A stretch of DNA of 62,660 nt, filler included, from Reclinomonas americana ATCC 50394 (Eukaryota): the NCBI GenBank assembly GCA_048213135.1. It is 5 parts of 2 records of this genome, joined end to end, with 100 filler letters (N's around TTAATTAATTAA, not from the genome) between each part and the next. Parts side by side here need not be neighbours in the genome. Positions count along the whole stretch, not along the records: positions 1 to 18,442 come from PS015065.1; positions 18,543 to 29,552 come from PS015066.1; positions 29,653 to 39,212 come from PS015066.1; positions 39,313 to 51,843 come from PS015066.1; positions 51,944 to 62,660 come from PS015066.1. One strand, written 5' to 3'. Numbering within the stretch: the first letter of the stretch is position 1; every line of letters begins with the position of its first letter. The notes below the pieces were generated by a model, which had not been told where the DNA came from, did not search any database, and was given only the letters and a program-made list of their open reading frames with translations. Below are positions 81 to 55,251 of the stretch, piece by piece. A program made the translations under genes and the position numbers.

Positions 81-149
81 ACTCACTCACAAACACACTC
101 ACACACACACACACACACAAAGAGAGAGAGAGACAGCTGCGCACTTAAC

Positions 150-598
150 TTTGCCTTCAATCAGCAACCAACAGTCCTCACGACGATTGTGTCGCGCCAA
201 CTCCTCCATTGAGATCTCATTGCCCTGGAGAACGAAATTGAGATGCATGTGTGAGAGCGAGTGAGTGCGTGCGTGTGTGTATGAGAGAGAGCGAGAGAGT
301 GAGTGTGTGTGTGTGAATGTACGCAACTCGCGGCTTGGGCTTCTTCGATGCCGCCACTGCATGCAAATGACAGTGAGTGCATTTCATCTTGTGCGCACAC
401 GCACGCGCGCACATGCACACACAAGAGAGAGAGAGCAAGAGAGTAAGTGTGTGTGTGCTTTGGTATTTCACCTGGCAGCTGATGCGAGCTCTTTGGCATC
501 ACGCACTGAATGGTGAGCGCAAAGGCCAGCACGCCCAGCACAGCCGCGCCCACAAGGAGCAGCGGAGATGAGTCCCACAGTTGCCACACAATGTCCAT
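150..598 (-). CDS. Cytochrome b5-like heme-binding domain protein with N-terminal TM segment (3' part lies outside the window)
   Basis: Exons 598-472, ~357-328 and ~225-150 give MDIVWQLWDSSPLLLVGAAVLGVLAFALTIQ...VAASKKPKPR GNEISMEELARHNRREDCWLLIEGK. 'EELARHN..DCWLLIEGKV' is the b5-fold N-terminal motif. Confidence 0.8.
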
Positions 599-729
599 TG
601 ATGATCTCTTACGCGCGAAAAGAACAAAGGAAGAAGAGTTGCCTAGATCAATCAATGAAATGCATGACGACGAGGTACACTGTCAACGTGCGAGCGAAGA
701 GTCCCACGGAGCCCCGCTATATGTGCTTC

Positions 730-854
730 TTAGAGCGAGGCAGCAATGGCAGCGAGGCACACCAGCTTGCAGAACTCGGTGAACTCCTTGACGCTGAGCG
801 CACCCGAGTGGTCAGTGTCGAGCTCCGCAAACGACTGTACACACACACACGTGC

Positions 855-931
<77 letters not shown>

Positions 932-1555
932 GAGCTCGCCAGCGTGCACAGTAACAGTTACTCGTGATGCAAGCACGCAACAGCATCGATCTCAGCCTGC
1001 GAGATCTCCGGGACAGCGCCCACCGCGCCACTGGCGACCAGGTCGCGCAGTACTTGCGCCAACTAGTAGTGTAAGGTGAGTGAGCGTTTGCGTCACTTGT
1101 TATTCAAAACGGAACGCGCTCTCTCTCGTTCTCTCACCTCCGACTTCTGCAGCGAGCCAGAGTTGTCAGTGTCGGCGGCCTTGAACGCCTCGGCGACCTG
1201 CTCCTGACCCTCGTCGCCTGTGCATGTGTGCGAGTGTGAGCATGTGACTGGTGCACTTTCTTTTGCTCGGAGAAACACAAGACAAGTCATGATACAAGCC
1301 ACACGAATAACGAGACAAACACGGAGGCAAGTAGTTGGGACGTAGGGGAAACACCATAGCACAACAAAGGGAGAAAGACGGGAGAGACAGGTGCGGAAAA
1401 AAGCGCGTGTGGATCTGCGGGCCCCATGTCGTCATGTTTGCCCGACATGCCCACCCCCGCGCTCTACTTGCGTCACACAGACAACCGCATGCATGCCCCA
1501 GCGACACGCAACTGTCGAAGAAGGCGCTGATCTGCTCAATCAATTCGTCGGCCAT
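730..1555 (-). CDS. Small two-EF-hand calcium-binding protein (4 exons)
   Basis: Spliced product MADELIEQISAFFDS DEGQEQVAEAFKAADTDNSGSLQKSE LAQVLRDLVASGAVGAVPEISQAEIDA SFAELDTDHSGALSVKEFTEFCKLVCLAAIAASL*. Two DxDxSG loops; the GT-AG introns keep frame. Confidence 0.85.
839..927. repeat. (CA)n microsatellite in the EF-hand gene intron
   Basis: Visible directly in the sequence. Confidence 0.95.
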
Positions 1556-1641
1556 TGTATCTGCTTTGCAAGTTGTGTTTGAAAGTGTGGGACTTGTGCG
1601 GGACTGTTCGTACGTCGTTGTCTCTTTCAAGCAACGAAGCG

Positions 1642-2311: not shown

Positions 2312-4428
2312 TCACCTTCTCCCATCGATCATGGCGTCACGCGGCGTGTACTGCAGCGGCTGACCTTCCGACATCTCGTCCACGTCGTCGTCTGGCGAGC
2401 CGAGTCCGCACCACTTGCCCGGTCGCGCCAGTGAGAAGAGCACATGTGCCACGTGGCCGACCACGGCGGCCACCGCCAACCCAACAGCCGAGATGAAATA
2501 GGCGTGAGTTTCGTCGTCGGCTGTGTGCGACGGATGGCACGGCTCAGCAACAAAAAGGAAGAAGGGAAACGAGTGGGAGAATACGATGCGCGCAACTTGT
2601 CGTGTTCTCCGGCCACCGCAGCAACGCCAGAGCCACGGCACCAATGCGCACCGCCACCAAATAAAACACGTGTACGCCAGCCAATTGTTGCGCTGTGGGA
2701 TGGGAAGAGAGAGAGAGGGAGAGTGCATGTCAGGGAGGCAAGTGCTCACGCAAGTGCATGTTGCAGCAAAACTCGCCTTTCGCCTCCTTGCCCTCCAGAT
2801 AACTCTTCTGCTCACGACGACGGGGTTCAGCGACGAAAAGAATGAACAAAAGACGACGTCACAAACCGCGTACCATCACCGCTCGCACATTGGGCGAGTG
2901 CGTGGCGTTGAGTACGACGGCGTAGAACTGCAGTGCTGCATGTGAGCCATCTCACAGCACCAGAAAGAACAATGCACGAAACTGCGAGGCGGAAGTGGCT
3001 GGCAAAGAAGCCGGCCAACGACGACGGTCGCTTGTAGACGGCACCAAAGCACGTCATGACCCACACGGTGGCCATTTGCACCACCATGGAGCCGACGCCC
3101 TAAACGTCATGTGAGCGTCACGGGTGGCAACCAAAAGCGGCAATTAACCTCGCAAGTGCTCACCTCGACAAACAGCAACAAGAGGCCGTACCTGTCGGGC
3201 AAACGATTAGAAACAATCTCTCATCTTCCCTTCCCCGACGTGGGATACGCACCATTGGAATCTGTGCGCACACGTTTGAAACACACACAGTGTGAGCAAT
3301 CAATCATCCGCGGTAGAGCAGCACGCAGTAACGACGCACACGTAGCCAAAGACGGCGACATGGAAGAACTGGAATGCCGTGCAGCCAAACGTGAGCACAA
3401 AGTGCAGAATGAAGCCGAGTACGCGCCGCGCCGCCGGAGTGTCCACTGCGAGTCACACACGCGTGAGCACACTCCATGTTACCGTCATGTCAACACGCCA
3501 TCATCACCTGGCTGCACAATGCCTTGTCGCTCGTGAAAAATGCTGACCACCAGCCAGTGGAAGCATAGCACAGAACACCCGAGTGCCACACAGATCTCCG
3601 TCTCGTACATGTGTCTCACCTGCGCGCGCTACGTGAGACACAGAAAGCGCTGAGCTGCAGCGGGACTGGGCTGGTCGGAACTCACAATTACGGCAAACAG
3701 AAAGGTGACTGCCGAGGGCGCTGCGAACGTGGCACAATGAATGGCTGCCAAGAGGAACGACCGCACTTGCTGGAACTGCACAGACACGAGAGGAGTCAGG
3801 GCCGAGAGGGGGGATCGAGAGGTCACGCTCGCTCCGCCGCACCGACGCATCGTCCTCACTGCGAAACACATCCAGTCGCAGGAAGCAGAATATCTGAATG
3901 AGAGGCCCTGTGAAGCCAAACAGCGCAGGCCACCACGGTGGATCACGACGTGCAGCGGTCGAAAAGGCCATTCTGCGCTCTCACTTGGTGAACACCAACA
4001 AATGCATCTGACAAATAATCACTTTCTCACACTCTCTCCCCACGCACCGCAAGTCACCAAAGAGCGACAACACCACCACATGCAGCAGCACGTTGAGGCC
4101 GGCGGTGCCGACAATCACACCAAACCATATTGTGTCGCCCGACTGCGCCCAATGAACACAGGCGACCACTGCACTCCACCAGTGTGCAATGAGCAGCAGG
4201 AGAGTGAACAGTGCAAAGATGGCGCGGCCAACGTTCAGCTCGCGATCGCTGGGCGCAAAGTAGTGCAGAGAGGGAGCTGCATGCAGGAGGCGGCGAGTCA
4301 GAGACGATAGATGCCACGCACTCTTCTGCACAGTGAGTGGCTCTATGAGCGAAACTGTCGGTTCGACTTCTTGACCGGAAGGCCAGCTCGTCGCCTGTCG
4401 AGGTGTCGATGCCAGAGGGCGCCCGCAT
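2312..4428 (-). CDS. Multi-pass membrane protein, weakly XK/XKR-like; exon boundaries approximate
   Basis: Several hydrophobic exons (AIFALFTLLLLIAHWW, GDTIWFGVIVGTAGLNVLLHVVVLSLF, CATFAAPSAVTFLFAVIV, YFISAVGLAVAAVVGHV) ending in DAMIDGRR*. Confidence 0.5.
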
Positions 4429-4577: not shown

Positions 4578-7386
4578 TCATGCTGGGTCGCAGAGCCATA
4601 ACAACACAAGGACCTCGTCGTTCGTCACTGCGCGAGAAGGAGAGTGAGCACTTGTCCACGACGCACGGTGCGCTCGCTGTTCCTTGACTCACCAGTGGCG
4701 CACGGGTCACCAAAGATGTCGGTGTGCGCGCGTACGGTGCACGACTGCTTGCCTTGGCAGCTCTGCTTGAGCGCTGCCGTGCCGTCTACCGAGCAGTCGA
4801 TGGAGGATGCGTACGTCGCAGTCGTCGGACACTCGGCGTAGGTGGCGTGTCGGCGGCCAAACGTGCCCGACACAATCTACGTCAAGAGGTTAGAAACGAA
4901 TGCACTGAGCAGAAAAAACATGGACCGGAGGTGGACCGCTCACCGACACTGCGCAAGACAAAACAAAAAGTTAGTGAAGATCAAAGCGCAGTTCGCAACC
5001 AAGCGAGCACAAACGCACATATGTGGTCATCCTCGCACGTCAGCGTGACCTGCGAACCAAAGCACAGCACTGCAAGAACCAGCTGGTCAGTTCTGGCGAC
5101 GCAGTGAGATTGTAGGTCATTTGGTTGCAACGCACCATTTGCAAATGCCAAGTGATTGGCGGCCAGTCCACCGAGAGCAATCGAGCAGTCGTTGCCAGTC
5201 CACGGATTGTTGCACAAGCAAGCGCCTCGTGGTGTGCACACGCCGTTGTTGGAGCAGCGGTTCGCTGGTGTGCACTCGCCTGCGCACAGCACGGAGGGGG
5301 TTGAGTGACAGGCGAGTGATCTAGCAGGTGCGGGTACGCAACAGTTGGGACCACCGTATCCATGCGTTGTGTCACAAGAGCATGAGCCTGCGCGAGAAGG
5401 TGAAAGTTGAGCAATCACACTTTCTCCGCCGATTATCGGGGAACATGAAGCACACCGTCGACGTTGCATGTTCCTCGTCCGTTGCATGTGGTTGCCGGAT
5501 CGCACAGGCACGTGGCTCCCCCAAAACCAGTGTTGCAATTGCTGTACAAGGCAGCAAAAGTGAGAGAGTGCGACACACAGGTGTATCCGGCCGCATTTAA
5601 AGCACACCATTGCCCAATGTCGTTGCACTGGCCACGCCCGTTGCTGCCACCACACAAACACAACCTTAATCAGTGCTCTACCGTGCCCTGCGATCTTCTC
5701 GTGTTCTTCTTACCAAGTGGTGTTATCGGAACACGAAGTGGCCACAGGGCGTGCCAGTGTTGCAAGATCGCTCCAGGTGGACACGCCCATCGCCTGGTAC
5801 TGCACACTCTGCGTCGACAAGCCTGCATCATTCGCCGACAACGCCAGCACCTCCAGTCTGTGATTCCCGGCCGTCAGTGTGGTTGTAAAGTCGATTTCGT
5901 TGCTGCATAGGCGCGCACAAGAGGGTGAGTGCTATCTGATCGGCGCAGTCACGCGCACAAGCCAGGCAAACCTCCAGTTCTGCTGCCAGTCCACCGCCAT
6001 TCGCGTCCACCGCACAATCCCTGTTGGGGGTCACAGATAAGTCATTGGGATTGATAGGGAACAGAGCTGTGTGTGTGTGTGCCTGTTCACCATCGAGTCG
6101 CACGGCTGCTCCCCACCCCGCGGTGACGCCGAATCGGAACACGTACGTCCACTGTGAAGACACCGAAAAGTCGATGACGGTGATTCGTGCCTGACGAGTC
6201 GGGCTGTTCACTGCGCCGCACAAGTCGGCCGCACGCAGACCAACAGAGGTCGTCAGATTGCTGACTCCGCACTCAGCCGCAGACTGAACGCCAAAAGTCA
6301 GTAAAAGAAGGCACAGCTGCAGGACGTGGAAGATATTCGGTCGCGCCACACACCTCGGTGGCCTTGGCGTAGAGAACCGACCAGTCTGACGACACTGGTG
6401 GCGTTGCTGACATGCCGTACACGACCATGGAAATGCCTGCGAGTCACAGAAACATGAGCGCAAGAAGACGGCGAGGTGTCGCAGTCGGTACACAACTGGC
6501 CCCAGTGGAGCCCGAGGACACCAGTGCCGCTGCGTCAGTCCACTGACCGCCGTTCGTTCTGTACTGCAGACCAACAGCACCGTTGCCTGCGTCGTAAACA
6601 AGTCAGTGCGGCGGTTCTCGTGCGTTTCTATCTGACGCTTCTTCTCGTACTCACAGCAATCGTCAAAAATGTACATTTCCACGCTGCGCCCCCACACAAC
6701 ATCAGTTCCCATTCATCAACGCCGCAGCTGCAGGAGAGCAAAAAAACGCAACGTATGAGTTCCACTGGACAACGTAGTGGCCGGAATGTACTTGGCCGTA
6801 TCCCAGCTACCGCCCCACCAATCGTCACCAGAACTGCACAAGCGAATCGATCAGGCACTGCCAAGCAACAACATCCATCCCACGGTGACGCAACACACGC
6901 GCGACAACAGTGTTGTCAATGGCCACAAGACCGCCGAGCTGAGGACCCGAGTCGTACGCCCACCGAAACTCGTACTGCGCCGCCGACGACACCGAGAACC
7001 GTATGTACAGATGGTGTGCGTACTTCGCATTCTCGCTGACCTGACCGGGGCACACCACACTGCCCACCATCGTAGCCACGCTCGAGGGATTGCTCCTCGT
7101 GCACGTGCCCTGCAGCGCGTTGAAAGCTGTTGCAGTCGCCGTCAGCGACAGTGACGTGAAATCGAGCGACAACGCCGAGGTCCACGTGGCCATCTCGTGC
7201 TGGATAGGTGCTGTGTGGAGATCAACAACAACGCAGTGAGCATAGCATGACGCGGGACCGAGCATTCACAGGGGGAGAAGACGCACGAGTCGCACTGGCC
7301 GGAGCAATCGACAGCACCAGCATCATCGCGATCGTCGCCAGCACGATTGTTCGTCGCTCGCACCGTCGCTCCCATCTGGTGATCAT
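4578..7386 (-). CDS. Secreted protein: signal peptide + two CCXG-family-like beta domains + ~3 EGF-like repeats + C-terminal SUEL-type (galactose/rhamnose-binding) lectin domain
   Basis: Hand-spliced: signal IVLATIAMMLVLSIAPASA; YEFRWAYDSG..GGLVAID..DDWWGGSWD..LSSGTHTVEMYIFDDCCNG; second copy YVFRFGVTAGWGAAVRLDG..LTAGNHRLEVL; CNGRGQC, CNGRGTC and CSNNGVC EGF repeats; GTFGR..C..CQGKQSCTV..FGDPC lectin motif. Confidence 0.75.
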
Positions 7387-7717: not shown

Positions 7718-10265
7718 ATGGCCTCAACTCCTGCACGACGCACCTTCAGTCGCAAGCGCAGCCAGAATGCGCAGTCGGACTCACAGGGCAGCTCCTCTGC
7801 TCCACCGACACCCGGCACTCCAGCCGCCACCAATAGCGTGTTTCCCGCCACTGGCGACAGTCAAGAGTCACTGGAGGATGAGTTTGATGCAGTTGCGCGC
7901 ACTCTCCTCTCTCTCTATTATAATTGAGCCCGACTCTCACGCGCGTTGAGCAGCTGCGCTCGACGACTCCATGCACTCCCATGCAGATTGCCGCCTCGCC
8001 GGCGAGTGTCACTGTCACGCCAAGTGAGTCGTTCTCGTCACTGTCAAAGCCGCTTGGGTGGCTGCACTTGTCGACTCCACCTGCTATGACTGTGGGAGAG
8101 GGGGATGCCACTGTGCCGCCCATGGAAGACGAAGACAATCAGCAGCAGCGACGATTGGCAGCGCGAGGGCGACGGCGATTGGAAGGTCGTGCCTCGTCAG
8201 TGTCGCCAGTGCCCGGGAGCAGCGCAGCAGCAGCAGCAGTAGCAACGAGAGCGCGTGAGAAGAAGTCACGTACGCCTCCTCCTCCTGCGTCTTCTTCTTC
8301 TACTGCGGCGGCGGCGACTGCCATGGAGGAGGATGATTGTGTTCCATCGTCGCGCGTGCATCAGGCCTCTGCTGGTATGCGATGTGAAGGGGCGATGTCA
8401 GACACTCACGCATATGGAAGCTGACTGGTGCTCGTGCGATGCGCAGCCGCTGAGGATCCGTTCTCGTTCACTGCGGGCTCGTCGTCGTCGTCGACGACCG
8501 CTGCTGGTGCTGCTTCTGTGTTCCAGGCGCCGGCTGCCAAGAGCCGATTGCGCGCTGTTGTCAGTCGCTCACGCAGTTCTGTCGCATGCATGTCAGTGTT
8601 TGTATGCCACGTGTGTGGGACGCTGACTTGCGTCTCGAGTGCAGATCTTGTGGACGAGTTGGATGCGATCTGTGCGCGCTTGGGCGACAGCCAGTTGCCT
8701 GCCATGGGGCGGCGAATGTGGTGCGTGTGTATGTGCGTTTGCGTGTGAGTGTGTCGCGCCTGGTTCTCATCGCGGCGATGCTCAGTGCCATGGAGGCTGT
8801 TGATTTGGTGACGAGTTTGGAGAGCGGCCTTGTGCCGGAGAAACGGTTATGGAGCAAGTTGGTGTCGGCGTTCTTGCCGCAGACAACGCACTCGGTGCGG
8901 CAGCGGGCCGACGATGCGGTGGTGCTCATGTGTGGTGTGGTGTTGTGTGGTTGGTGCGTCGTGTGTGAGAGCTTCCCGTTCGTTTCGTTGTTGTATGGCT
9001 CACGCTGCACGCACAAAGGTGGGCGTCCGCTGTGGCTGCGGAGCCCACAACGGTGCAGCGGGTGTTGACCGCCTCGCAGCATCTGTTCAACATGGTGGAG
9101 ACCATGTCCATGGCCGACGACATTCAGGTGATTTTCCCCCCTCTACACGTGCTGTGATGTGCATGCAACCCCTCACACGCCTCCTCCCCGTGGCAGGAAC
9201 TGTCGCGGCTGTTGAAGCGACACGACGCACTACAATCGTTTGGCTCGATGAGCGATTCATTTCCGTTGTGTATGTGGGCACTGCGCCAGTTGTGTGCAGC
9301 GAATCCACGTGCCGTTGGCGACGCGCTCCGCGAGTCGGGAGTCATGGACCGCGTGCTGCAGTGGGTGGTGCGGTCGGTGGGGCTCCTGCTGAGTGGATGC
9401 GGTGGCGAGTTTGCTGCGCAGACGGCACTCGGGTGTGTGGAGTCAGTTGCGTTTGTGATGCACGATGCCGTTGCCTCTCTGTCCCTGCTGACTTACCATT
9501 TTTCCGCACAGTTCTTGGAGGCCGACGTGGGCGCTCGTCACCAGTCGTACGTTGTGTTGCAGGCGCGTGACGAGCTGACGGCGGCGCTGGTTTCCTTGTT
9601 CCGCCGCTCACCGCCCGATCCACGACCCGACATTACGCTGTCGGCGATGCGCGTGTTTGTGAATCTGACCAATGAGTGTGCCGACGCGTGTGCGGCGGCT
9701 GCCGAGGCCGGTGCGGTGCAGGCGGTGGCCGATCTGGTGCTTCGCGAATCACTACCGTGGGACACTCGCGTGCTGTGCCTGGCGGCGCTGACCAATCTGG
9801 TGGAGGATTCGACGCCGAACTTGCTGGCGCTGCTGGCACTCAACTGCACGGGGCAGAGCAAGTCGGAAAAGTTTTTGCGCGTGCTCGGCCGCCTCCACTG
9901 TCAAATGTCGAGCGCGGACCACGAGGAGTCGGAAAAGTGCATGGAGGACATGTTGATGGCGTCGTACGCGGCCCTGCTGATGGGCCTTGTTGCTGCATCG
10001 GGCGAGGGTGGCGCCGCAGAGGTGCGACAATTCCCTTTTCTTGTGAGTGTGTGTTGTGTATCATGTCCTCATCTTCCCGTGGCAGGTGCGTGCATCGCTC
10101 CCGGCGGCACGTTTCGCTGAGCTGCCCAACATTATCCATCGCTTCCTCTCGTTCCAACGGCAGACGGGGGCGGCGAGTGACGAGGTGGTGCGCAAGGTGC
10201 AAAATGTGGTACGGCAATTGCGTATCACGGTCGCATCGACAATAGGCCCGAGTGGTGGCGAATGA
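7718..10265 (+). CDS. WAPL: Wings apart-like cohesin release factor
   Basis: AMRVFVNLTNE, DTRVLCLAALTNLVE, MEDMLMASYAALLMG and VRASLP..F..L..IIHRFLSFQ match the WAPL C-terminal HEAT domain; disordered N-terminus. Confidence 0.85.
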
Positions 10266-14020: not shown

Positions 14021-15726
14021 TCACCAAACGTACTGCGTGCACAAGACCATCAGGAATACACAAATATCGAATATCGAACAAGGATCGATATCGGCGCCAC
14101 TCAACGTGAACCACTCCACTCCCACGTGCTTCAGCTGCTCGATAATGGCCGGTGAGCAGCTGTCCAGCGAAGCCAACTTGGGCGGAATCACCGAGTTCAC
14201 GCGCAGGAAGTCGTCGTCGAGCACCAGTTGCAGCTGCTGGTCAATCAGAGTTGTCTGCGCACAGTTCCGACAGTGTGAGCAACGACGCGCGCGACTGCAC
14301 CGACAGGCCTGTGACACACGCAACATCCATGAGAATGTCCAGCAGGCCGCTTTCGAGCCACTTGATCGCACCGAAGCGCTGCACACACATGGACTGAGTT
14401 ACCAACTTCTTTCGGATAATCGATATCACCTTCCTCCCATCTCTTTACCTGCGACGCGGGACCGGGAATGGGCTCCACGCACACTCCGGTGCCGACCGAT
14501 AAGATGATCACCGGCACATCGGGTCCGTACAGCTTGGCGGCCGTCACCATGGCCACCATGGCCGGCGAGTTGCACGTCACGCCACCATCGATACAAAATC
14601 TGCCGTCGCTGAGTTGTACAGTGGGGAAGTACGTCGGGGCCGCACTCGACGCGTCCGCGACCTCGGCCAGCCCCAGGCCGTGATCCACCGGCTGCACGCA
14701 GCACTGTCATGTGAGCTTCAACGATGGGACGATGACCACACTGAAGGAATGCAACGTTCAAGTTGGAGAACACCACCGACTGCCGATTCTCCACTGCAGG
14801 AGGGAGTGAGCACTCGTGCTTCTTCACAATCATCCTCGCTCATTTCACGCTCACCATCGTACGACATGGCCAGCACCACCTGCCACCATCACCGACACAC
14901 AGCCCACACAGAGTCAGCAGGAGAGGAATCTTTTCAAATCTGCAAGTCTACTCCGTTCACCTTGTCGGCCGGCACATCACCGAGCGTCGTGCCGCCCATT
15001 TGCTCCTCCAGCACCTGCCGCTTGCCGACGCCATTGTACTTGGGTTGGAACTCGAGCGGCAGAATGCGCTCCCACATTGATCGGTCAAAGATCCGGGCGC
15101 ACGATTCGTGGGAGTAGAGGGCGGCGAGTTTGGCGGCCGGCAGCTGCATGCCGCCGAGAGACAGCGTCTGGATGGCGCCGGTGGAGGTGCCGGCAAAAAT
15201 GTCAAAGAACTCACACAGTGGCTGGCCCAGCGCGGTCTCCAGCAGAGCCTGCGTGCATTTGTGCACCGCGAGTCAGTCTAGATCTGCAGTCGACAAGTTG
15301 AGGCGAAGTGCGTACCAGGAACTGTGCCGACGCAGCGCCACGCACACCACCACCATCCAACGACAGAATCCTGACGCAGCCGTGGCGCGGAACCGGCCGC
15401 CGACCCATGGCCGGGATCTCAAACACGCGCGGATGCTCGACCGACGACGGATGCACCGCCGGCAGGGCAGAGGAATCGGCCATGGCCTCGGCCACCTCAC
15501 TCGATCGCACAAACGTCCATCCGGCCTGCTGGGCACGCACCACTTCTTCCTCCTCGTCCTCTTCCTCTTCCTCTTCCACCACTACCGCTTCCTCGCGATC
15601 GCCACCGCGATCAATCACTCGCGTCGCATCGACAATCTCCACAGCGACCGCTGGATCCGGCGACAACTGCGTCGCAGCAGCAAAGAATGTGAGCACCTCC
15701 TCCTCCTCCTCTCTTCTCGTGTACAT
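14021..15726 (-). CDS. Patatin-like phospholipase
   Basis: RILSLDGGGVRG, FDIFAGTSTG, ASSAAPTYF, IDGGV..NSP and ILSVGTG motifs. The 3' end is approximate. Confidence 0.9.
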
Positions 15727-31015: not shown

Positions 31016-31507
31016 TCAGCGGCGACCGTGCCGGTTCCCGCCTCTTCCACCACCACCACCGCCTCTTCCGCGACCGCCTCCACGACCGCGACCACCGCCA
31101 CGACCGCGACCACCGCCACGACCACGGCTGCCACCGCCACCACCACGACTGCCACTGCCACCTGCATGTCGCGCACGCTTGCGAGCCGGTCGCCCATCGT
31201 CGGCTCCGTCCTCGTCGTCGGACCACAACTGCCGCATGATGAAGATTTTGAGTGCAAATGCAAGAGTGCGACTTGTCTCTCATGACTGCACGCAACATTG
31301 CTTTCCTCGCCCGCCTCCTCCAGCATCTCGGCAAAGTCGTCGGCCGACGCAAACGTGGAGTCCGGAAGAACCACACCGCTGCGTTCGCGCTCGCGTCTCC
31401 TCCTCTTGCGCTCCTTGTATGTCAGCTTCTCGTCGTCTGCATCCTCGTCGTCTTCATCCTCCTCATCGTCCTCATCGTCCGCCTCCTTGCGTAACCTCTT
31501 CTTCGAC
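31016..31507 (-). CDS. C-terminal fragment of a Mak21/Noc1/CEBPZ-like ribosome biogenesis protein with RGG tail
   Basis: Acidic tract then STFASADDFAEMLEE (cf. yeast Mak21 FASADDY), followed by RGG repeats. The rest of the gene is absent beyond the gap. Confidence 0.55.
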
Positions 31508-43100: not shown

Positions 43101-45375
43101 NNNNNNNNNNNNNNNNNNNNNNNNNNNNNNNNNNNNNNNNNNNNNNNNNNNNNNNNNNNNNNNNNNNNNNNNNNNNNNNNNNNNNNNNNNNNNNNNNNNN
43201 NNNNNNNNNNNNNNNNNNNNNNNNNNNNNNNNNNNNNNNNNNNNNNNNNNNNNNNNNNNNNNNNNNNNNNNNNNNNNNNNNNNNNNNNNNNNNNNNNNNN
43301 NNNNNNNNNNNNNNNNNNNNNGGAGATACCTGCAATGCAAGTCGAAGCCATTGAATTCTACCACCTCGTGCAATCGAAGGTCGTGGAGGAGCACGAGTTG
43401 GAGCGCGGAGCGGAGCCGGCGCAGCTGTGGAACAATCTGTTGGTGGAGGTGAGGGAGGATCCGCCTGTGTTGCGCAACAAGATAGGTGTCAGTGCATGAA
43501 CCTGACATTCTGCATGCACACAGCTGCTGACCATTGTGGAGACGGCACACACGGAAACTGGTCGGCGGGCGGCGGCTCGCGCGGGGCACTTGGTGCGCGA
43601 GGCGCGAATCACCGATGTGGCGTATTCACGCAGCAAGAGCGATGTGTTGGTGGAGGGCATTCCACACATGCTGCGCTTCTCTACGCACTTGGCACTCTTC
43701 TTGCGAAACGCGGTGCCGTTGCTCGAGGAGCGTGTCGAGGATGTGCGAGAGCTCGTACGGCGCTACGTCATTGCTCTGAGTCACGCCAAGGAGTCGTATG
43801 TGGTGCGTTGTTGTTGCGGTCCTGTTTTCCTCGTGTGGTACTGACGTTCGGTTTCGTGCCTTTCGTTTCACAGGAGCCGCTGGTGGCGCAGTACACGCGG
43901 CAGCTGGACGAGGCGCAGCAGATTGAGGAGTTTGCCGACTTTTTGGTGCGCATTGAGGACGCCATTACGACCGGCGACCGCACTGCAGGTGACCCGAACG
44001 AGCGACGCCAACGATGCTTGCGGTACGCCGAGGTGGCAGGTCTGCCGGTCAGCGAGATTACGCGCCGCGTGGTGGAGAAGATCCGTGCGCGGTCGCCGAA
44101 ATCCGGCGAGCGTGAGCCGGCCACTGCTCGCCAGTTGGCAGCCTCTCGCACGCCATTTTCCACTGGGCGTCTCACTCGCAATCGTTGCGCACCCTGTGCT
44201 GCTTTGTTGGAGTTGTTGGTGAAATGACCTTAATTGTTCGTGGCACCCGCGCAGCGACTGCCATGGACGCTGACGACGACAGCGAACTGCCGAGTGGCGC
44301 TGAACTGAGTCAGTACGACCGGAACCGCATCGAGGCGCTGAAGTGGATGACGTCCGACAAGGAGCAGCTGGGCGAGGCCATTATGCAGGCCAACGCACTC
44401 GCGCGCTCCTTTGCGGAGTACACCTTCCGTGACCCGCCGCAATTGACGGCGATGCATCGAGTGCTGTTCCGATCGCTGCCCGACGACACGGTGGAGACGG
44501 TGATCAAGCAGTTCACAGGGGTGCGTCTAACATGACAGAGAGTGCGCCTGCGTCCATCAATGCTGACTTAGGTTGTGGTCAAATTGTGTTGCAGGTGCCG
44601 TACGTCACGAACGGCATCAAGGAGCTGCGTTGCTGGCGAACGTACTGCAAGGCACTCCGCCGGTACGAGCGGTGGGCGCAGCACTTTTATCGCGAGCCAC
44701 GTCCAAGGTGCGTGCATGTGTTGCAGAAGCGAGAACTGCTGCGTGCTTATCGACCACCGCTGTGCACAGTGACGGAGAACGCGGATTTGGCGGCGCAGCT
44801 CGTTTCGTGCTCCTTGCTTTCGTGATGGTGTCGACATCGCTCTCTCCCTCACACACCTCGTTCCTTACTTGCAGGTCTGCTGGCAATTCAGCAACACTGG
44901 GACGCCACGGACAAGGAGCTGGCCGAAGAGGCCGAGGAGATGTTGCAGTTGACATTGACGTTCAAGACTGGCTTCTTGGAGGACCGCGTGAGCGACGACA
45001 CCGATGCCGAGAGAAACGAGCAGCTGGCGGTGCTGCGGCCGCGCACGATTGCACGCTGCATCAGTCTGCTTCACAATATGCACCAGGAGCGCAGCGACTA
45101 TTCCAAGTGGTGAGGGAGACATGGGGAGGGTGTGAACAGTGCTCGCCGAAACGAGGACTGACTCGCCTTTCGGTCGACACAGCTTCCTGCTGGCCGATAT
45201 GGTCGCCGCCAACCTGCTGCACAATCTGGAACCGGAGCAGCTGCAGGAATATGTGGCGCAGTTGCAGGCGGTGCATGTGTTGCAGTTGGATCGCGAGGGC
45301 GCGCAGTGGCGCGAGACGAGGCGACGCGGCCCGCAGCGACACATTCGTGTCGACGAGGCGCTGCATCCAGTTTGA
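40185..45375 (+). CDS. NUP107: Nuclear pore complex protein Nup107/Nup84 (many exons, internal gap; start tentative)
   Basis: IIDWLE, LDPDA, RLRCG..EQA..C..GQPYRAATLSGG, GNP.RALWK, ERAVYGALAGNL, TWEDYLWAH and MLRFSTHL motifs. Confidence 0.92.
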
Positions 45376-45550: not shown

Positions 45551-46880
45551 TTATCCAGTGGCGGGCGCCGTGAAGGCTGCAGCGGCCACGGCACGCTTCT
45601 TCATGGTGGCGTGCACGGGGTCACGCGGCGGGCTGCTCTCGGTCGTCGACTTGATGGCGTCGGGGTGATCCTTTGGCAGCGTGTCCTTTTCGCGCACGTC
45701 GTGCACGCCACCACCGCTCAGCTGCCGAATGGCGATCCGTGCAATCAGGTAGAACCAGTACACGTGCAGCACCTGCAAGATGGTCATGCCGACGGTGAAG
45801 CGGCCCAGCCAGACCATGCCGACAATGTTGTAGTGGCCGTAGACACTGCGAAGCGTGTGAGGCTAATGTGTGTGCCGCGCAACGAGGGACGCGTGATCGC
45901 ACGCAACATGGCAGCGCGAATCGGCACGAGTGGGAAGAACGCGAGGCGGGCAAAGAAGAACGAGATGGCGAAGATGATAAAGGTGATGTCGACGAGCTTC
46001 TCCAGCCTCAGATAGCGGAACGACTTGGCCGAATACAGGAAAATATCAGAGACGTCGTGCAACAGCAGCAGCAGCAGTCCGTGGCGGTGGCAACTGTGTG
46101 GGGAGGGGGGAGGGGAGAGAGAGAGAGAGATCAGCAGCGCTGCGCAGACGCAATAACAAGAAAACACGTGCACGCACCGCGCCCACGCCGAGAACAGGAT
46201 CAGCAGGATGGTGGTGACATGATGCACCACGTACACCCAGAAATCGTCGAGTCGCGTCTCGAAAAAGTGCGACACCAGCGCCTCCACGTAGAACGACAGC
46301 TCCAGCAGATAGTAGAAGAGGAACGCCGGCCTATGCACAACAGCGCAGCGTGAGCAGGCACCACAGCGTGCGCGTGACGAGTGATCATCAATGCACCTGA
46401 ACGGTTGCAGCGGCCAGTTCGCCCAGATGTTGGTCAGTGGGAACACTGTCCACTCCTCCGTCATAAACACCCAGAGCGCCATGGAGAACGCCAGGGTGTA
46501 GTACGTGGCGTACCACGAGTTCTCCAAGAACTTGCGTTCCAATTTGCGGAAGGTGGCCTCGTAGGCGACGGGGTTGGTCGTCTTGCCGTGCCACCGCCGA
46601 AAGAAGCGCAGCGCGCAGAAGCGATAGAGCTTCTTCACCACGAAGAAGCACAGCGCAAGGATGCAGATGGGCACGAGGCCGCGTGCTTCGCAACAGACGC
46701 GCTCCAAGTCAGTCACGAACAGCGCGTTGTTGGCGTCCACCACTGCATTGTGAGCAAAGGTGGAGATGTCGTCGCCAGAGTACTCGTGGGTGAACCTGAG
46801 AGCAGCACAGAGACAAGAGAGAGCGCGGGTGTGAGAAGTCTGATCCTTGGCGAAGAATATATGTGATTCGTCAACCACAT
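45551..46880 (-). CDS. Ceramide synthase (Lag1/CerS, TLC domain), copy 1
   Basis: KFLENSW, YYLLELSFY, RLDDFWVYVVHHVTT, LHDVSDIFLY..K, RLAFFP and LQVLHVYWF motifs. Confidence 0.92.
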
Positions 46881-48470: not shown

Positions 48471-48501
<31 letters not shown>

Positions 48502-49705
48502 AAAGCGTGTCGGCAGACCCGTCGATGTGGTCGCAAATGCAGCGGCGGCCAACACGCTCGCACAGCTCGCGATCAGGCACCATTGGTAGCCGTCTCGCTC
48601 TCTGCCTCGCTTTCTCTCACGCCCCCCATCTCCCTCCCTCCCCCTCCCTCTCTCCCATCTCCCGTCACGCAACATGGCAGTGCGAATGGGCACGAGCGGG
48701 AAGAACGCGAGGCGGGCGACAAAGAACGAAATGGCAAAGACGATAAACGTGACGTCGACCAGCTTCTCCAGCCTCAGGTAGCGGAACGACTTGGCCGAGT
48801 ACAAGAAGATATCCGACACATCGTGTAACAGCAGCAGCAGCAGTCCAATTCGATGGTACCTGTGCGTGTGCCGCAGCGCAAACAAATGAGCATATCTCCT
48901 GCAGCAACAACAGCGTCGCAGGGCGAGCACGCACCGCGCCCACGCCGAGAACAAAATCAGCATGATGGTGGTCACGTGATGCACGACATACACCCAGAAA
49001 TCGTCGAGTCGTGTCTCGAAAAAGTGCGACACCAGCGCCTCCACATAGAACGCCAGCTCCAGCAGATAGTACAAGAGGAACGCCGGCCTATGCAAACGAG
49101 CAAAACATGAGTGCGCAGGCACCACAGCGCACGTCGCGACGAACTGCCACAGTGCACCTGAACGGTTGCAGAGGCCAGTTCGCCCAGATATTTGAGATGG
49201 GGAAGAGGGTCCACTCCTCGGTCATAAACACCCACATGGCCATGGCAAACGCCAACGTGTAATACGTGGCATACCACGAGTTCTCCATAAACTTGCGCTC
49301 CAATTTGCGAAACGATGCATCGTACGTGGCACGATCCTTCTTCTCGCCATGCCATCGCCGGAAGAAGCGCAGCGCGCAGAAGCGGAAGGCGTTCTTCACG
49401 ACGAAGAAGCCGAGGGCGAGAATGCAGACGGGAACGAGCGCGCGAGCCTCGTAACCGACGCGCTGCGGGTCGCTAATGTAGTGCTCGTTGGCCGCGCGAG
49501 CCACTGCATCGTGCGTGTAGGTGCTCACATCGTCGCCTGCGTAGTCCACTGATAGCCTGTGTGACGCACACACACAACGCATATTTTTTATGAGGATGCG
49601 CACACGCACACGAGACACGCATTTCGTCGCCTCTCTGTGCACACACACACACACACACACTCACGGTTCGAGATACCACGAGATACTCGACCACGGGGAA
49701 GACAT
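48097..49705 (-). CDS. Ceramide synthase (Lag1/CerS, TLC domain), copy 2
   Basis: Same motifs and intron positions as copy 1; start MSSPWSSISW. Confidence 0.92.
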
Positions 49706-50672
49706 TGGGCGTGTGTGTGTCCACGTGTATGCGTTTGTGTGTGTGTGTGTGTGCGAGATTGTTTGGGGCACGTGCTCGCGAAAAAACATATTCTCTTTTT
49801 TTGTCGTATTTGGCGAGAGAGGGAAGCGGACGATGCTGGTACTGCTATAGATGGCGATGGCGAGATGGTGGCGGTGTGTCTGTCTCTGTGATGATTGCAG
49901 GTCGAGTCGTGATCGGTACACGATCGATATATCGATACGCGACATATATATATATTGAATGAGTACATGCAGGGCCTGTGCACGCAGATAAAGCGAACGG
50001 ATCGCGGCTGTGTGGTGTCGCCCCACGTCGGCCGATCACCATGGTAGGGCAGTGGAGAGCGGTGGGCTGAGAGAGGAGGACATCGAACGATCGGAGATGC
50101 CTTCCATAATCACTGGTTCAACGCGCGGCGGCAGCGGGCGATCGTTGCGCGTGCAGGCGCGAGAGGCTGAGCAAGTCGATTGTCTCTGCCACCACACTCT
50201 TTGGAGGAGTCTGCGGCCGACGGACACGTGCATTGGTCCGGATTTGTCAGAGGAGATGGCGCCTTGCTTCCGCACTTGCCTGCAGCAACCAGCTGCTGTG
50301 GTGCTGCGGTGTTATTCAGTGTCACTCACCACTCGGCTGCCTCCATCTCGCTCCTCCTCCACCGCACACGGCAACGCCAACTGAAATCTCACTCAGTTCG
50401 CCTTCCCGCCCTCACCGACGCCAACCCCACCAACATGTAGTGCCTCGCTGTGGAAGCCACTTCTTGCAACCTCAGCTCGCTCCAGATCCACTCCCATGAG
50501 CAGCTGTGAGCTCTCACACCACGCGAGCCTCTCCACTCACCTCCAGGATTTGCATGACGCGTGGATCGTCACCGCTGCGCCAGCTACTGCACCTGCTTGT
50601 GGAACCTCACCATCGCTGTCGCCTCATAGTTGCTGCGACCGTGTCACAAACGCTTGTGCAGTGTACATTTGC

Positions 50673-51757
50673 TTACTTTACCACCGCAGTCACTCGTCCC
50701 ATGTGCGCGCGACGAATGGAGGTGCGCGAGCGCTTGCGCGCCGTGGCCATCACCGCCGCCGCCGTGTCATCCAAATCTGCCGTGTCGACATTGTCGGAGC
50801 CGAGGGCGCCGCCCACCGCTGAGCAGGCGGACGAGGAGAGACGCTTGCGGCGCCAGCGCGCCAACTCAGCACTGGACTTTTGCGCGGTGCGGAACAGGCG
50901 CTGCTCGATGCGCGTCAACTTGGCCAGCGCCGCCGACTCGGCCTCCGTGTGACCCGTAGTCATGCGCGACATGGAGCAGCCGCCAGCGCGCAACCCCGAT
51001 GTGTGGAACGTGTCGAGAATGCGACGGAAGCGCTCGATGAACAGCGGCAACAGCATTCGCCTCATCTCCCCATCGCCAGTGCTGTGCATGCGCGATCAGC
51101 ACGTGCGCTCATGGTGTGGGGCGACTCGCTGCAGTAACAGACGCAACAGATTCGCCACGCGGGCGCCCATCTCGAAAAAGTGCGGGTTGGACTGGTTGAG
51201 ATTGTAGAAGGCCGGGTCGGCCTCCAACCCGCGCAAGTACCGCGGTCGAAGATACGCCGGCACATCCACGTCGACATAGCCACGGCGACACACTGCGCTG
51301 ACCAGCCAGAACGGCATGTCAACTCGCGCGCCCTCTCGCAACTGTGAGTGAGATCAGTTGGCCCCAAATCGTCATGACATTGCGCGCCAAAACACACAAA
51401 ACAATCATGCGAGACGGTGAGCGACACGCAACGTCCTTGTCTTCCTCCTCCTCCTCGTCTTCGTCTTCGTCCTCCTCCTCATCATCATCGTCCATGTTGT
51501 CTCCCGCCTCTGCTCTTCTCCTCATCCTCTCCTCCTTCCTCTGCAGTTGCTTCTCATCCTCGCGGTATGAGGTGTCCAGGAAGCCCAACTCAAACGACGC
51601 AGTGCGCCACACCACACTCAGTTTCTGTGTGTGAGAGAGTGAGAGAGGCAAGAGTGAGTGAGGGTGAGAGGCAACAGAGAGTGACAGTGAGAGTGCACGG
51701 CATGCAGACCTCCTCCTCAGCCAACAGCTGATCCAAGTCATAGTACTGTCCCTCCAT
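50673..51757 (-). CDS. GINS3: GINS complex subunit Psf3 with acidic insert
   Basis: MEGQYYDLDQLLAEEE, LGFLD, G.RVDMPFWL, LEADP..YNL....PHFFEMG, FIERFRRI and KLTRIEQRLF motifs. Confidence 0.88.
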
Positions 51758-51843
51758 GAATGATGATGATTGTTGCGCAAAGAGTGTTGTCTCTGTTCGT
51801 TATCGACTGAGGGTTTGCTTGGCAGAAGGCGCGCGCGGCCGGT

Positions 51844-51943
51844 NNNNNNNNNNNNNNNNNNNNNNNNNNNNNNNNNNNNNNNNNNNNTTAATTAATTAAN
51901 NNNNNNNNNNNNNNNNNNNNNNNNNNNNNNNNNNNNNNNNNNN
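51844..51943. other. Artificial contig linker
   Basis: 44N-TTAATTAATTAA-44N. Confidence 0.95.
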
Positions 51944-52143
51944 AATGCGAGAGGGGGAATGCGAGAGGGGGAATGCGAGAGGGGGAGAGCGAGAGCGAGA
52001 GGGGGAGAAAGAGCGAGAGGGGGAGAGCGAGAGGGGGAGAGCGAGAGGGGGAGCGAGAGGGCGAGAGGGGAGAGCGAGAGAGGAGAAGGGGGAGAAGAGA
52101 GCGATCGGTCGGGAAATCACAGCCTGCTGAATTCGTACGCAAC

Positions 52144-55251
<3,108 letters not shown>

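What the first reader, a model, noticed from the sequence alone, without database searches (positions are those of the whole stretch)
149..52144. A major second class of 5' splice sites with a one-nucleotide register shift (GTTGCG/GTTTCG/GTTGTG; conserved G at +6)
SEEN: in hand-spliced genes, many introns start GTT-[G/T]-[C/T]-G rather than GTRNG. Donor positions include 327, 981, 1512, 5342, 6496, 6752, 6894, 7892, 9446, 12106, 13189, 14324, 31296, 31729, 34579 (RPL9), 36453, 36568, 36814, 37838, 38003 (RTCB), 41454, 41817, 42467, 44184, 44802 (NUP107), 45907, 48673 (CerS), 51147, 51432 (GINS3) and 52143 (PDE). GTTAAGT at 149 is a tentative addition. Those inside conserved domains are fixed by reading frame; a few in unconserved regions rest on plausibility. 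They look like the organism's ordinary donors (GTGCG, GTGTG, GTAAGT) with one extra T at +3, so N|GTTGCGT superimposes on G|GTGCGT moved by one base. KNOWN: +5G normally pairs with U1 and then the U6 ACAGA box. Rare human GUUAAGU donors are read by shifted or bulged U1 pairing (Roca & Krainer). INFERENCE: this register appears to be a mainstream class here, implying an adapted spliceosome (variant U1/U6, or altered U1C/LUC7/PRP8/SNRNP27K-type factors).
Basis: partly seen in the sequence, partly recalled or inferred. Interest (0 to 1): 0.88.

Follow-up and report, generated by a model that had tools for sequence, protein, structure and literature searches.

The report
Shifted GTTGCG intron start sites
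In this stretch of a protist genome, roughly a third to a half of the introns begin GTTGCG rather than the usual G|GTGCG, as if the splice-site signal were read one base out of step, a pattern so far known only from a few rare human introns.

Summary
All 31 listed positions carry the motif. Protein homology or paralogy backs 10 of them, a self-trained gene finder recovers 21, and 10 stay unverified.

RtcB splices into a 510-aa ORF that aligns without gaps to four homologues. Five of its nine donors are GTTGCG or GTTTCG.

Of 25 homology-supported introns in seven genes, 12 belong to the class. A donor-blind gene finder followed by an unsupervised mixture model recovers it as 23% of predicted donors against 38% ordinary. 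GTTGCG is the hexamer most tied to coding-to-noncoding transitions (19 of 73, p=4e-9).

The register-shift reading is supported:
- Base -1 is G in 13 of 13 ordinary donors and 0 of 12 class donors.
- The flanks of the class fit the ordinary profile only when slid by one base.

In all other respects the two classes look alike. They are not repeats and not U12-type.

The mechanism (U1 pairing shifted by one base, cleavage at the only GU) is inferred. No RNA reads, snRNA genes or whole genome were available. The nearest named relative is the jakobid Seculamonas. Five full-text searches found no description of this pattern. I rate it a new variant of a known kind.

The parts
34573..34579 (-). class donor a|GTTGCGT, RPL9 intron (86 nt), phase 2
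   Evidence: The spliced product aligns with 0 gaps to Seculamonas RPL9 across ...EIK-N-NEIT...
36453..36459 (+). class donor c|GTTTCGT, RtcB intron 1 (77 nt)
   Evidence: The spliced RtcB aligns with 0 gaps to 4 homologues
36568..36574 (+). class donor a|GTTGCGC, RtcB intron 2 (99 nt)
36814..36820 (+). class donor a|GTTTCGC, RtcB intron 3 (83 nt)
   Evidence: an unused GTAAGT lies inside this intron
37838..37844 (+). class donor a|GTTGCGT, RtcB intron 7 (72 nt)
38003..38009 (+). class donor t|GTTGCGT, RtcB intron 8 (60 nt, in frame, no stop)
45901..45907 (-). class donor t|GTTGCGT, CerS paralogue A intron 3 (62 nt)
   Evidence: The paralogue alignment stops right after GTTGCGTG and resumes at the acceptor
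48667..48673 (-). class donor t|GTTGCGT, CerS paralogue B intron 3 (285 nt)
   Evidence: Consecutive Pfam D123 profile segments 105-133 then 143-179; found by the donor-blind finder
   Evidence: Pfam D123 profile 181-217 then 222-295; donor-blind finder
44184..44190 (+). class donor c|GTTGCGC, Nup107 intron (71 nt)
   Evidence: Pfam Nup84_Nup100 profile 409-470 then 481-545, giving the order only; donor-blind finder
51141..51147 (-). class donor t|GTTGCGT, PSF3/GINS3 intron (66 nt)
   Evidence: The two flanking exons match human PSF3 62-123 and 136-197, E about 1e-3 and 7e-3, so support is approximate
975..981 (-). class donor t|GTTGCGT
   Evidence: donor-blind and self-trained finder
1506..1512 (-). 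class donor a|GTTGCGT
   Evidence: donor-blind and self-trained finder
   Evidence: donor-blind and self-trained finder
2976..2982 (-). class donor a|GTTTCGT, not listed
   Evidence: self-trained finder only
4349..4355 (-). class donor a|GTTTCGC, not listed
   Evidence: self-trained finder only
6490..6496 (-). class donor a|GTTGTGT
   Evidence: donor-blind and self-trained finder
6888..6894 (-). class donor t|GTTGCGT
   Evidence: donor-blind and self-trained finder
7892..7898 (+). class donor a|GTTGCGC
   Evidence: donor-blind and self-trained finder
9446..9452 (+). class donor a|GTTGCGT (WAPL-like gene)
   Evidence: self-trained finder
10992..10998 (-). class donor t|GTTGCGT, not listed
   Evidence: donor-blind and self-trained finder
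14318..14324 (-). class donor t|GTTGCGT (patatin-like gene)
   Evidence: self-trained finder
26528..26534 (-). class donor t|GTTTCGA, not listed
   Evidence: self-trained finder only, weak
26719..26725 (-). class donor c|GTTGCGT, not listed
   Evidence: donor-blind and self-trained finder; the acceptor is doubtful
27206..27212 (-). class donor a|GTTTCGT, not listed
   Evidence: donor-blind and self-trained finder
29204..29210 (-). class-like donor a|GTTACGC, not listed
   Evidence: donor-blind and self-trained finder
31290..31296 (-). class donor t|GTTGCGT
   Evidence: self-trained finder
40190..40196 (+). class donor a|GTTTCGT, not listed
   Evidence: self-trained finder only
41192..41198 (+). 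class donor t|GTTGCGT, not listed
   Evidence: self-trained finder only; the 40-nt intron is doubtful
42467..42473 (+). class donor a|GTTGCGT (Nup107)
   Evidence: self-trained finder; the upstream exon matches Pfam Nup84_Nup100 200-264
44802..44808 (+). class donor c|GTTTCGT (Nup107)
   Evidence: self-trained finder
51426..51432 (-). class donor c|GTTGCGT
   Evidence: donor-blind and self-trained finder; the upstream exon is acidic low-complexity with no PSF3 match
143..149 (-). listed GTTAAGT, unverified
   Evidence: no coding support and no usable acceptor
321..327 (-). listed GTTGCGT, unverified
   Evidence: weak local support
5336..5342 (-). listed GTTGCGT, unverified
   Evidence: weak local support
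6746..6752 (-). listed GTTGCGT, some support
12106..12112 (+). listed GTTGCGT, good local support
   Evidence: Upstream coding score 15.8 and an acceptor 63 nt downstream; not in the final parse
13183..13189 (-). listed GTTGCGC, some support
31729..31735 (+). listed GTTGCGT, unverified
41454..41460 (+). listed GTTGCGT, some support
41817..41823 (+). listed GTTGTGT, unverified
52137..52143 (-). listed GTTGCGT, unverified
   Evidence: no acceptor candidate found; a contig linker lies nearby
37173..37179 (+). comparator, ordinary donor g|GTGCGCG (RtcB)
37366..37372 (+). comparator, ordinary donor g|GTACGCA (RtcB)
37654..37660 (+). comparator, donor g|GTTTGTT (RtcB; +3T but +5G)
38180..38186 (+). 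comparator, ordinary donor g|GTACGAT (RtcB)
46390..46396 (-). comparator, ordinary donor g|GTGCATT (CerS A)
46171..46177 (-). comparator, ordinary donor g|GTGCGTG (CerS A)
49151..49157 (-). comparator, ordinary donor g|GTGCACT (CerS B)
48928..48934 (-). comparator, ordinary donor g|GTGCGTG (CerS B)
39701..39707 (-). comparator, ordinary donor g|GTGAGGC (D123)
39334..39340 (-). comparator, ordinary donor g|GTGAGTG (D123; the intron spans a contig linker)
42172..42178 (+). comparator, ordinary donor g|GTGAGGG (Nup107)
43803..43809 (+). comparator, ordinary donor g|GTGCGTT (Nup107)
44521..44527 (+). comparator, ordinary donor g|GTGCGTC (Nup107)

Best explanation
These are ordinary short GT-AG spliceosomal introns of an intron-rich protist. 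Its nearest named relative is the jakobid Seculamonas. The 5' splice site comes in two registers of one signal.

The common site is W-G|GUGCGUG. The second class is W|GUUGCGUG (or GUUUCGU). That is the same nine-base signal with U instead of G at the third place, cut one base further upstream, because that is where the only GU now lies.

The most likely mechanism is as follows. The 5' end of U1 snRNA pairs with both classes in the same frame relative to the UGCGU core. For the second class this is the 'shifted' register: intron +1G pairs where exon -1G normally does, +2U is a mismatch, and +3U, +4G, +6G and +7U pair. The later spliceosome then places the nearest GU in the catalytic centre.

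Shown here: the class is real and abundant, it lies one base off the ordinary register, and it differs from ordinary introns in nothing else that I measured.

For: Real introns:
- RtcB spliced at the nine GT-AG pairs gives a 510-aa ORF that aligns with 0 gaps over 497-510 residues to P0029, P0004, P0011 and P0076. Five of the nine donors are GTTGCG or GTTTCG.
- RPL9 spliced at 34579 aligns with 0 gaps to Seculamonas RPL9.
- The CerS tandem paralogues keep GTTGCGTG at the same junction, and similarity stops right after it.
- D123, Nup107 and PSF3 exons follow one another in profile or PDB coordinates.
- In total, 12 of 25 homology-supported introns are class donors.

Abundance without prior:
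- Change-point test: GTTGCG 19 of 73 against a baseline of 399 of 7687, p=4e-9.
- Donor-blind finder: GTTGCG 14, GTTTCG 3 and GTTGTG 1 of 104 predicted introns.
- Unsupervised mixture on those 104: 'a|GTTGCGTg' 23%, 'caG|GTgcGtg' 38%, background 39%.
- Self-trained finder: 35% against 52%, and it reproduces RtcB 9 of 9.

Register shift:
- Base -1 is G in 0 of 12 class donors and 13 of 13 ordinary donors in the homology set (p=1.9e-7). In the finder set the figures are 1 of 34 and 32 of 40 (p=2.7e-12).
- Class flanks scored with the ordinary profile are best at a one-column offset. Upstream the score is -1.8 against -43.1 unshifted. Downstream it is +12.1 against -7.9.
- With the U1 5' end printed in PMC4856993, ViennaRNA's optimal duplex for the class consensus is the shifted register.

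Same intron population:
- Median length is 71.5 against 75 nt, GC 0.549 against 0.540, the phases are even, and the 3' ends are GCAG or ACAG in both.
- Both classes occur within single genes.

Lineage-specific: only 1 of 49 junction regions of RtcB genes in 25 metagenome loci has GTT[GT]CG nearby, against 5 of 9 here (p=1.5e-4).
Against: - There is no RNA evidence at all, so the splice junctions rest on protein homology and on my own gene finder.
- The finder is crude. In its donor-blind form about 39% of predicted donors look like noise. The self-trained form can favour motifs that are already frequent.
- 10 of the 31 listed sites were not recovered.
- Support for the D123, Nup107 and PSF3 junctions is by profile order, not exact to the residue.
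- The U1 sequence of this organism is unknown. With a human-type U1 5' end the shifted duplex is weak: -2.4 kcal/mol for GUUGCGU, and no shifted duplex at all is returned for GUUUCGU. An unmodified U1 may therefore not suffice.
- Base -1 is T almost as often as A (12 and 15 of 34), which pairing to U1 U10 does not explain.
- One 62-kb window need not represent the genome.
Confidence: 0.6

Rival explanations
1. A dedicated snRNA variant. The genome would encode a second U1 (and perhaps U6) whose 5' end matches GUUGCGU, for example a change at the position opposite +2U. The class would then be read by its own snRNP rather than by mismatch tolerance.
For: The class is too common and too uniform to be a tolerated oddity: +5C in 32 of 34 and +7T in 24 of 34. 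A human-type U1 5' end binds it weakly: -2.4 against -8.9 kcal/mol. Variant U1 genes exist in humans (PMC3561869 and PMC10870369, search listing only).
Against: The flanks of the class follow the ordinary profile at a one-base offset. This is expected if one RNA reads both classes, or if a variant differs at a single position. No snRNA gene lies in the window, so nothing speaks directly for a variant.
Confidence: 0.2
2. Bulged register. U1 would pair with +1G and +2U as usual, with the extra U at +3 looped out. This is the 'bulge at +3 (or +2)' register described for human sites.
For: At the sequence level GU-U-GCGU equals GU-GCGU with one extra U. This register is validated in human cells (PMC4856993, Figure 1C legend and text).
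Against: In this register exon -1 would still face U1 C9, so G at -1 should be favoured as it is in ordinary donors. It is G in 0 of 12 against 13 of 13, and 1 of 34 against 32 of 40. The optimal predicted duplex is the shifted one, not the bulged one.
Confidence: 0.1
3. Artefact of splicing by eye or by my finder. The true donors would lie elsewhere, and GTTGCG would merely be a frequent word near exon ends.
For: No RNA data are available. 10 of 31 listed sites are unsupported. The finder is noisy.
Against: In RtcB, RPL9 and CerS the reading frames on both sides are fixed by gapless alignment or by paralogue conservation, and GTTGCG or GTTTCG is the only GT that fits. A change-point test without any splice model gives p=4e-9.
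Confidence: 0.04
4. A family of mobile introns ('introners') or minor-spliceosome (U12-type) introns that carry their own conserved 5' end.
For: A conserved 7-8 nt intron start could be the end of a repeat or a U12-like box.
Against: An all-against-all BLAST of the predicted introns (those containing N left out) gave only 7 weak hits, from low-complexity sequence or the CerS paralogue pair, and no family. Beyond +8 the class introns differ. None of the 34 starts with the U12-type box; the consensus RTATCCTT is recalled and comes from no call. Length, GC and 3' ends equal those of ordinary introns.
Confidence: 0.03

Closest known systems
Shifted-register recognition of atypical human 5' splice sites by U1 (Roca and Krainer 2009, known to me through PMC4856993 and PMC9311317; the original paper is not held)
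   Same: All 5'ss/U1 base pairs are moved by one position. The intron still starts with GU. +2U sits opposite a U1 C, and the conserved G lies at +6 instead of +5. The optimal duplex predicted here has the same shape as that of the paper's shifted test oligo.
   Different: In humans this is a rare exception with a long A/U-rich pairing stretch (GUUAAGUAU type). Here it is about a third to a half of donors in the window. It has a G/C-rich core (GUUGCGU) that pairs weakly with a human-type U1. It stands beside an ordinary class in a strict either/or with the -1 base.
Bulge +2/+3 register of human 5' splice sites (Roca et al. 2012, via PMC4856993 Figure 1C and PMC9311317)
   Same: One extra U between the GU and the paired core.
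   Different: That register predicts that G is kept at -1. The class here avoids G at -1 (0 of 12).
Cleavage site set by later spliceosome components rather than by U1 (cases cited in PMC4856993; SNRP-27 and cryptic 5'ss choice in C. elegans, PMC6140464, search listing and start of abstract only)
   Same: The place of U1 pairing and the place of cleavage can differ by a base or more.
   Different: Those are mutants or single genes. Here it would be the normal state of many introns.
Lineage-specific donor consensus such as GUUUGU in Entamoeba (recalled, from no call)
   Same: U at +3 is tolerated. GTTTGT donors also occur here (5 of 113; RtcB 37654).
   Different: GUUUGU keeps G at +5 and, in this window, G at -1. 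It is therefore in the ordinary register.

Membership tests
U2-type GT-AG spliceosomal introns | Intron begins GT and ends AG, and its removal restores the reading frame | tested here: met
   RtcB 9 of 9, RPL9 and CerS A and B give gapless or paralogue-consistent products
U2-type GT-AG spliceosomal introns | G at +5 pairing with U1 C4 and the U6 ACAGA box | tested here: not met
   In the class +5 is C in 32 of 34 and T in 2 of 34. G stands at +6 in 34 of 34, by the definition of the class
U2-type GT-AG spliceosomal introns | Branch-site-like motif near the 3' end | tested here: inconclusive
   A strict CTRAY motif in the last 50 nt is found in 8 of 34 class and 11 of 40 ordinary introns, so the two classes are alike but the motif is too strict
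Shifted-register 5' splice sites | More complementarity to the U1 5' end when slid by one base than in the canonical frame | tested here: met
   duplexfold returns the shifted register for GCAGUUGCGUGC; this assumes a human-type U1 5' end
Shifted-register 5' splice sites | Position -1 behaves like canonical -2, and +1G takes the place of -1G | tested here: met
   Class -1 is A15/T12/C6/G1. Ordinary -2 is A11/T17/C7/G5 and ordinary -1 is G in 32 of 40. Homology set: 0 of 12 against 13 of 13
Shifted-register 5' splice sites | Rescue by suppressor U1 only in the shifted frame | not testable with these tools
   Needs minigenes and mutant U1
Bulge +2/+3 register 5' splice sites | Canonical pairing of -1, +1 and +2 is kept, so G at -1 stays favoured | tested here: not met
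   G at -1 in 0 of 12 and 1 of 34 class donors
U12-type (minor spliceosome) introns | 5' box RTATCCTT (recalled consensus) | tested here: not met
   All 34 class introns start GTT[G/T/A][C/T]G
Introner-type mobile introns | Many introns that are copies of one sequence | tested here: not met
   7 weak hits among the predicted introns compared (those containing N left out), and no family

The most novel reading that the evidence does not exclude
In this lineage the spliceosome would routinely cut at either of two positions relative to one snRNA-pairing core. About 40% of all introns genome-wide would use the upstream position. This would be made possible by a lineage-specific change: a U1 with an altered base opposite +2U, a second U1/U6 pair, or altered proteins that position the 5' splice site during the U1-to-U6 hand-over. 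That would make it a natural system for asking how the cleavage site is measured from the snRNA duplex.
Probability: 0.3. Interest if true: 0.85.

Novelty: new variant of a known kind. Interest (0 to 1): 0.72.

Why it matters
How the spliceosome carries the exact cleavage position over from the U1 duplex to the U6-based catalytic centre is still studied mainly with rare human sites and with mutants.

An organism in which a third or more of normal introns are cut one base off the usual register would be a natural experiment on that step. The switch is clean: G at -1 with GUG, or no G at -1 with GUU.

There is also a practical side. Gene finders trained on +5G donors will mis-splice such genomes. 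In-frame, stop-free introns such as RtcB 38003-38062 would be read through. That may be why no matching proteome was found: the best RtcB hit was 87% on the last exon and the best RPL9 hit 69%.

Tried and rejected
- RNA evidence: no RNA holder was listed for window 44000-51800, so read laying could not be used.
- Whole genome: none is held, so U1/U6 could not be sought. Rfam found nothing in the window.
- Earlier findings of the scan: three answered look-ups returned nothing.
It was replaced by ORF and exon references.
- CerS N-terminal exon as a lineage probe: no hit.
- Metagenome scan for a close genomic relative of RtcB: best 84-89% on one exon, so no close relative. The loci served only as a control.
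- First versions of my gene finder were too noisy and merged genes. The hexamer-table self-training got stuck and was dropped in favour of the acceptor-aware, donor-blind run and the two-class mixture.
- PDB search with exon 51433-51624 gave only low-complexity matches, so 51432 has no homology support.
- Rejected readings: introner family, U12-type introns and the bulged register (see the rival explanations).
- Literature: searches for GTTGCG with splice terms and for jakobid, Reclinomonas or Jakoba with intron and splice terms found no description of such donors. The Andalucia godoyi paper (PMC7050145, passages) reports an intron-poor genome with all introns GT..AG and gives no donor consensus in the passages I saw. 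PMC8134430 and PMC12817076 (passages) say nothing on splice sites. Supplements were not opened. Roca and Krainer 2009 is not held.

Full report
**What the window is.** It is 62,660 bases, about 57% G+C outside 20 runs of N. It is gene-dense and has many short introns. Four of the N runs are pairs of 44 N around TTAATTAATTAA, a six-frame stop spacer, so the window is made of joined contigs. No whole genome is held. No Rfam family matches. No RNA run was listed.

Lineage. The organism's own proteins are not in the searched collection. The best RtcB hit to the last exon is 87% identical and the best RPL9 hit is 69%. In both searches the nearest named organism is the jakobid Seculamonas ecuadoriensis. 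In a quick RtcB tree the window groups with Seculamonas and one unnamed sequence at 99% SH-aLRT (this is the quick tree, not the careful one). The published jakobid Andalucia godoyi is intron-poor (PMC7050145, passages), so this is another, intron-rich relative.

**The observation.** All 31 listed coordinates carry the motif. GTTGCG occurs 74 times on both strands against 36 expected from base composition.

The strongest test is RtcB.
- tblastn with two homologues, followed by reading the junctions, fixes nine GT-AG introns.
- Joining the ten exons by coordinate gives a 510-aa ORF. It aligns with zero gaps over 497-510 residues to four homologues, at 82.7% identity to Seculamonas.
- The nine donors are GTTTCG, GTTGCG, GTTTCG, GTGCGC, GTACGC, GTTTGT, GTTGCG, GTTGCG and GTACGA.
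- Five of the nine therefore belong to the class, and each is exact to the residue.

Other genes give the same picture.
- RPL9: the frames on both sides are fixed, and the only GT that fits is the GTTGCG at 34579. The spliced product aligns with zero gaps to Seculamonas RPL9 through ...EIK-N-NEIT..., with the split codon giving the conserved N.
- CerS: the two tandem ceramide-synthase paralogues share three introns. Their DNA similarity ends just after GTGCAT/GTGCAC, GTGCGT/GTGCGT and GTTGCGTG/GTTGCGTG, and it resumes at the acceptors.
- D123: the exons cover consecutive stretches of the Pfam profile (63-100, 105-133, 143-179, 181-217, 222-295). The donors are GTGAGG (39707), GTTGCG (39536), GTGAGT (39340) and GTTGCG (39052).
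- Nup107: the exons follow the profile order, with donors GTGAGG, GTGCGT, GTTGCG (44184) and GTGCGT.
- PSF3: the exons either side of 51147 match human PSF3 62-123 and 136-197, at weak E-values.

Together that makes 25 homology-supported introns, 12 of them in the class. The D123, Nup107 and PSF3 junctions are supported by order rather than to the residue.

**Tests that assume nothing about donors.**
1. Change-point test. For every GT in the window I asked whether an open, coding-like frame runs up to it and coding potential drops after it. GTTGCG ranks first, with 19 of 73 sites passing against 399 of 7687 for all GT sites (p=4e-9). GTGCGT is second with 13 of 100.
2. Donor-blind gene finder. 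A small dynamic-programming finder knew only GT, AG, a learned acceptor profile and coding potential. It predicted 104 introns. GTTGCG was the commonest donor (14), with GTTTCG 3 and GTTGTG 1, but many predictions are clearly noise.
3. Unsupervised mixture. A mixture model on those 104 donors first finds 'a|GTTGCGTg'. With two motifs it gives 'caG|GTgcGtg' at 38%, 'a|GTTGCGTg' at 23% and background at 39%. The class is thus about 38% of the non-background donors.
4. Self-trained finder. Letting the finder train on this two-motif model gives 113 introns and reproduces the RtcB model exactly (9 of 9). It also returns the exon boundaries found above for RPL9 and both CerS genes. It puts the class at 35% against 52% ordinary and 13% background. 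This last estimate can favour motifs that are already frequent.

Of the 31 listed sites, 12 are found donor-blind, 21 are found by the self-trained finder and 10 are not found. Of those 10, one (12106) has good local support, three have some and six have little. Thirteen class donors were new relative to the list.

As a control, RtcB genes in 25 metagenome loci from other eukaryotes have GTT[GT]CG near only 1 of 49 junction regions, against 5 of 9 here (p=1.5e-4).

**The register.** The two classes separate cleanly at the last exon base. In the homology set it is G in 13 of 13 ordinary donors and 0 of 12 class donors (p=1.9e-7). In the finder set the figures are 32 of 40 and 1 of 34 (p=2.7e-12). 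The donor-blind class members also show no G at -1.

The class's -1 composition (A15/T12/C6/G1) resembles the ordinary -2 (A11/T17/C7/G5). Its +7 T (24 of 34) and +8 G (16 of 34) resemble the ordinary +6 T (19 of 40) and +7 G (20 of 40).

I scored the class flanks with the ordinary profile at several offsets. The one-base offset is best on both sides: -1.8 against -43.1 upstream, and +12.1 against -7.9 downstream. Part of the upstream gain simply reflects the missing -1 G.

Written out, the two classes are W-G|G-U-G-C-G-U-G and W|G-U-U-G-C-G-U-G. This is one nine-base signal with G or U at the third place, cut in front of whichever GU results.

**Same introns otherwise.** The classes have the same median length (71.5 and 75 nt) and the same GC (0.549 and 0.540). 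Their phases are even and their 3' ends are the same (GCAG or ACAG). Both score low on a strict CTRAY motif (8 of 34 and 11 of 40). Both occur within single genes.

An all-against-all BLAST of the predicted introns (those containing N left out) gives 7 weak hits and no family. They are therefore not copies of a mobile element, and none has a U12-type start.

**Mechanism.** Known biology offers two ways to read such a site, both validated on rare human 5' splice sites (PMC4856993 and PMC9311317, passages):
- the 'shifted' register, in which every 5'ss/U1 pair moves by one position;
- a register with a bulged U at +2/+3.

The bulged form keeps exon -1 opposite U1 C9 and so predicts G at -1. The data contradict this. 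The shifted form predicts that +1G replaces -1G and that -1 behaves as -2, which is what is seen.

With the U1 5' end as printed in PMC4856993, ViennaRNA's best duplex for the class consensus is indeed the shifted one (+1G-C9, +3U-A7, +4G.U6, +6G-C4, +7U-A3, +8G.U2). It is weak, at -2.4 kcal/mol against -8.9 for the ordinary consensus. For GUUUCGU only the three exon-side pairs are returned.

I therefore favour U1 pairing in one frame on the UGCGU core, with cleavage at the nearest GU. I give real weight to a lineage-specific helper: a U1 changed opposite +2U, a second U1/U6, or altered proteins.

How U6, which normally pairs with +5G and +6U, handles the extra base is open. PMC4856993 notes that diversity of U1 registers need not be matched by diversity of U6 helices. 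All of this paragraph beyond the sequence statistics is inference.

**Known or new.** Full-text searches for the motif with splice terms, and for jakobids, Reclinomonas or Jakoba with intron and splice terms, found no description of such donors. I did not open supplements, and Roca and Krainer 2009 is not held.

The kind of recognition is known. Its use as a main class of donors, with a G/C-rich core and a strict either/or with the -1 base, is to my knowledge new. I file it as a new variant of a known kind.

**Limits.**
- There are no RNA reads, no snRNA genes and only one window.
- My gene finder is home-made and noisy, and a third of the listed sites are unverified.
- The lineage rests on two genes.

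Noticed in passing
18443-18542, 29553-29652, 39213-39312, 51844-51943: Four identical spacers of 44 N, TTAATTAATTAA, 44 N. This is a six-frame stop linker, so the window is a chain of joined contigs rather than one assembled molecule. The D123 gene runs across the spacer at 39213-39312 with its Pfam profile in correct order (179 then 181), so at least that join is right.
   Followed up: partly
45551-46795 and 48097-49556, minus strand: Two tandem ceramide-synthase (TLC domain) paralogues, about 78% identical in DNA over the exons. They share three intron positions and the same donor class at each. The third intron is 62 nt in one and 285 nt in the other.
   Followed up: partly
38003-38062 (RtcB), and the CerS introns after 46396 and 49157: These introns stay in frame without a stop codon, so ORF-based or +5G-trained gene finders would read through them and insert about 20 residues.
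   Followed up: partly
about 36853, inside RtcB intron 3: A perfect GTAAGT lies 40 nt inside the intron and is not used, because it would break the frame. GTAAGT occurs 10 times in the window and none is a predicted donor.
   Followed up: partly
37654 and four other predicted donors: A minor donor type, G|GTTTGT. It has U at +3 but G at +5 and G at -1, so it is in the ordinary register.
   Followed up: partly
whole window: (GT)n/(CA)n and (GA)n/(TC)n microsatellites are about 13-15 times over-represented and often lie inside introns, for example in RtcB introns 1, 2 and 6.
   Followed up: no
RtcB codons 85, 223, 297, 366, 405: Intron-like breaks within 3 residues of these positions occur in RtcB genes of other, unnamed eukaryotes in metagenome loci. 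Codon 85 matches 4 loci and codon 366 matches 2, and both are class donors here. Some class introns may therefore be old introns that changed register in place. This is approximate, being based only on HSP ends.
   Followed up: partly
whole window: GTTGCG lying in the sense direction inside predicted 'introns' outnumbers antisense 11 to 2, and 24 more copies lie in unannotated stretches. My models probably still miss small exons and further class donors.
   Followed up: no
4694-4876 and 5137-5277, minus strand: Exons encoding a SUEL-type lectin domain and a teneurin-like EGF domain, in a long multi-exon gene of unclear extent.
   Followed up: no
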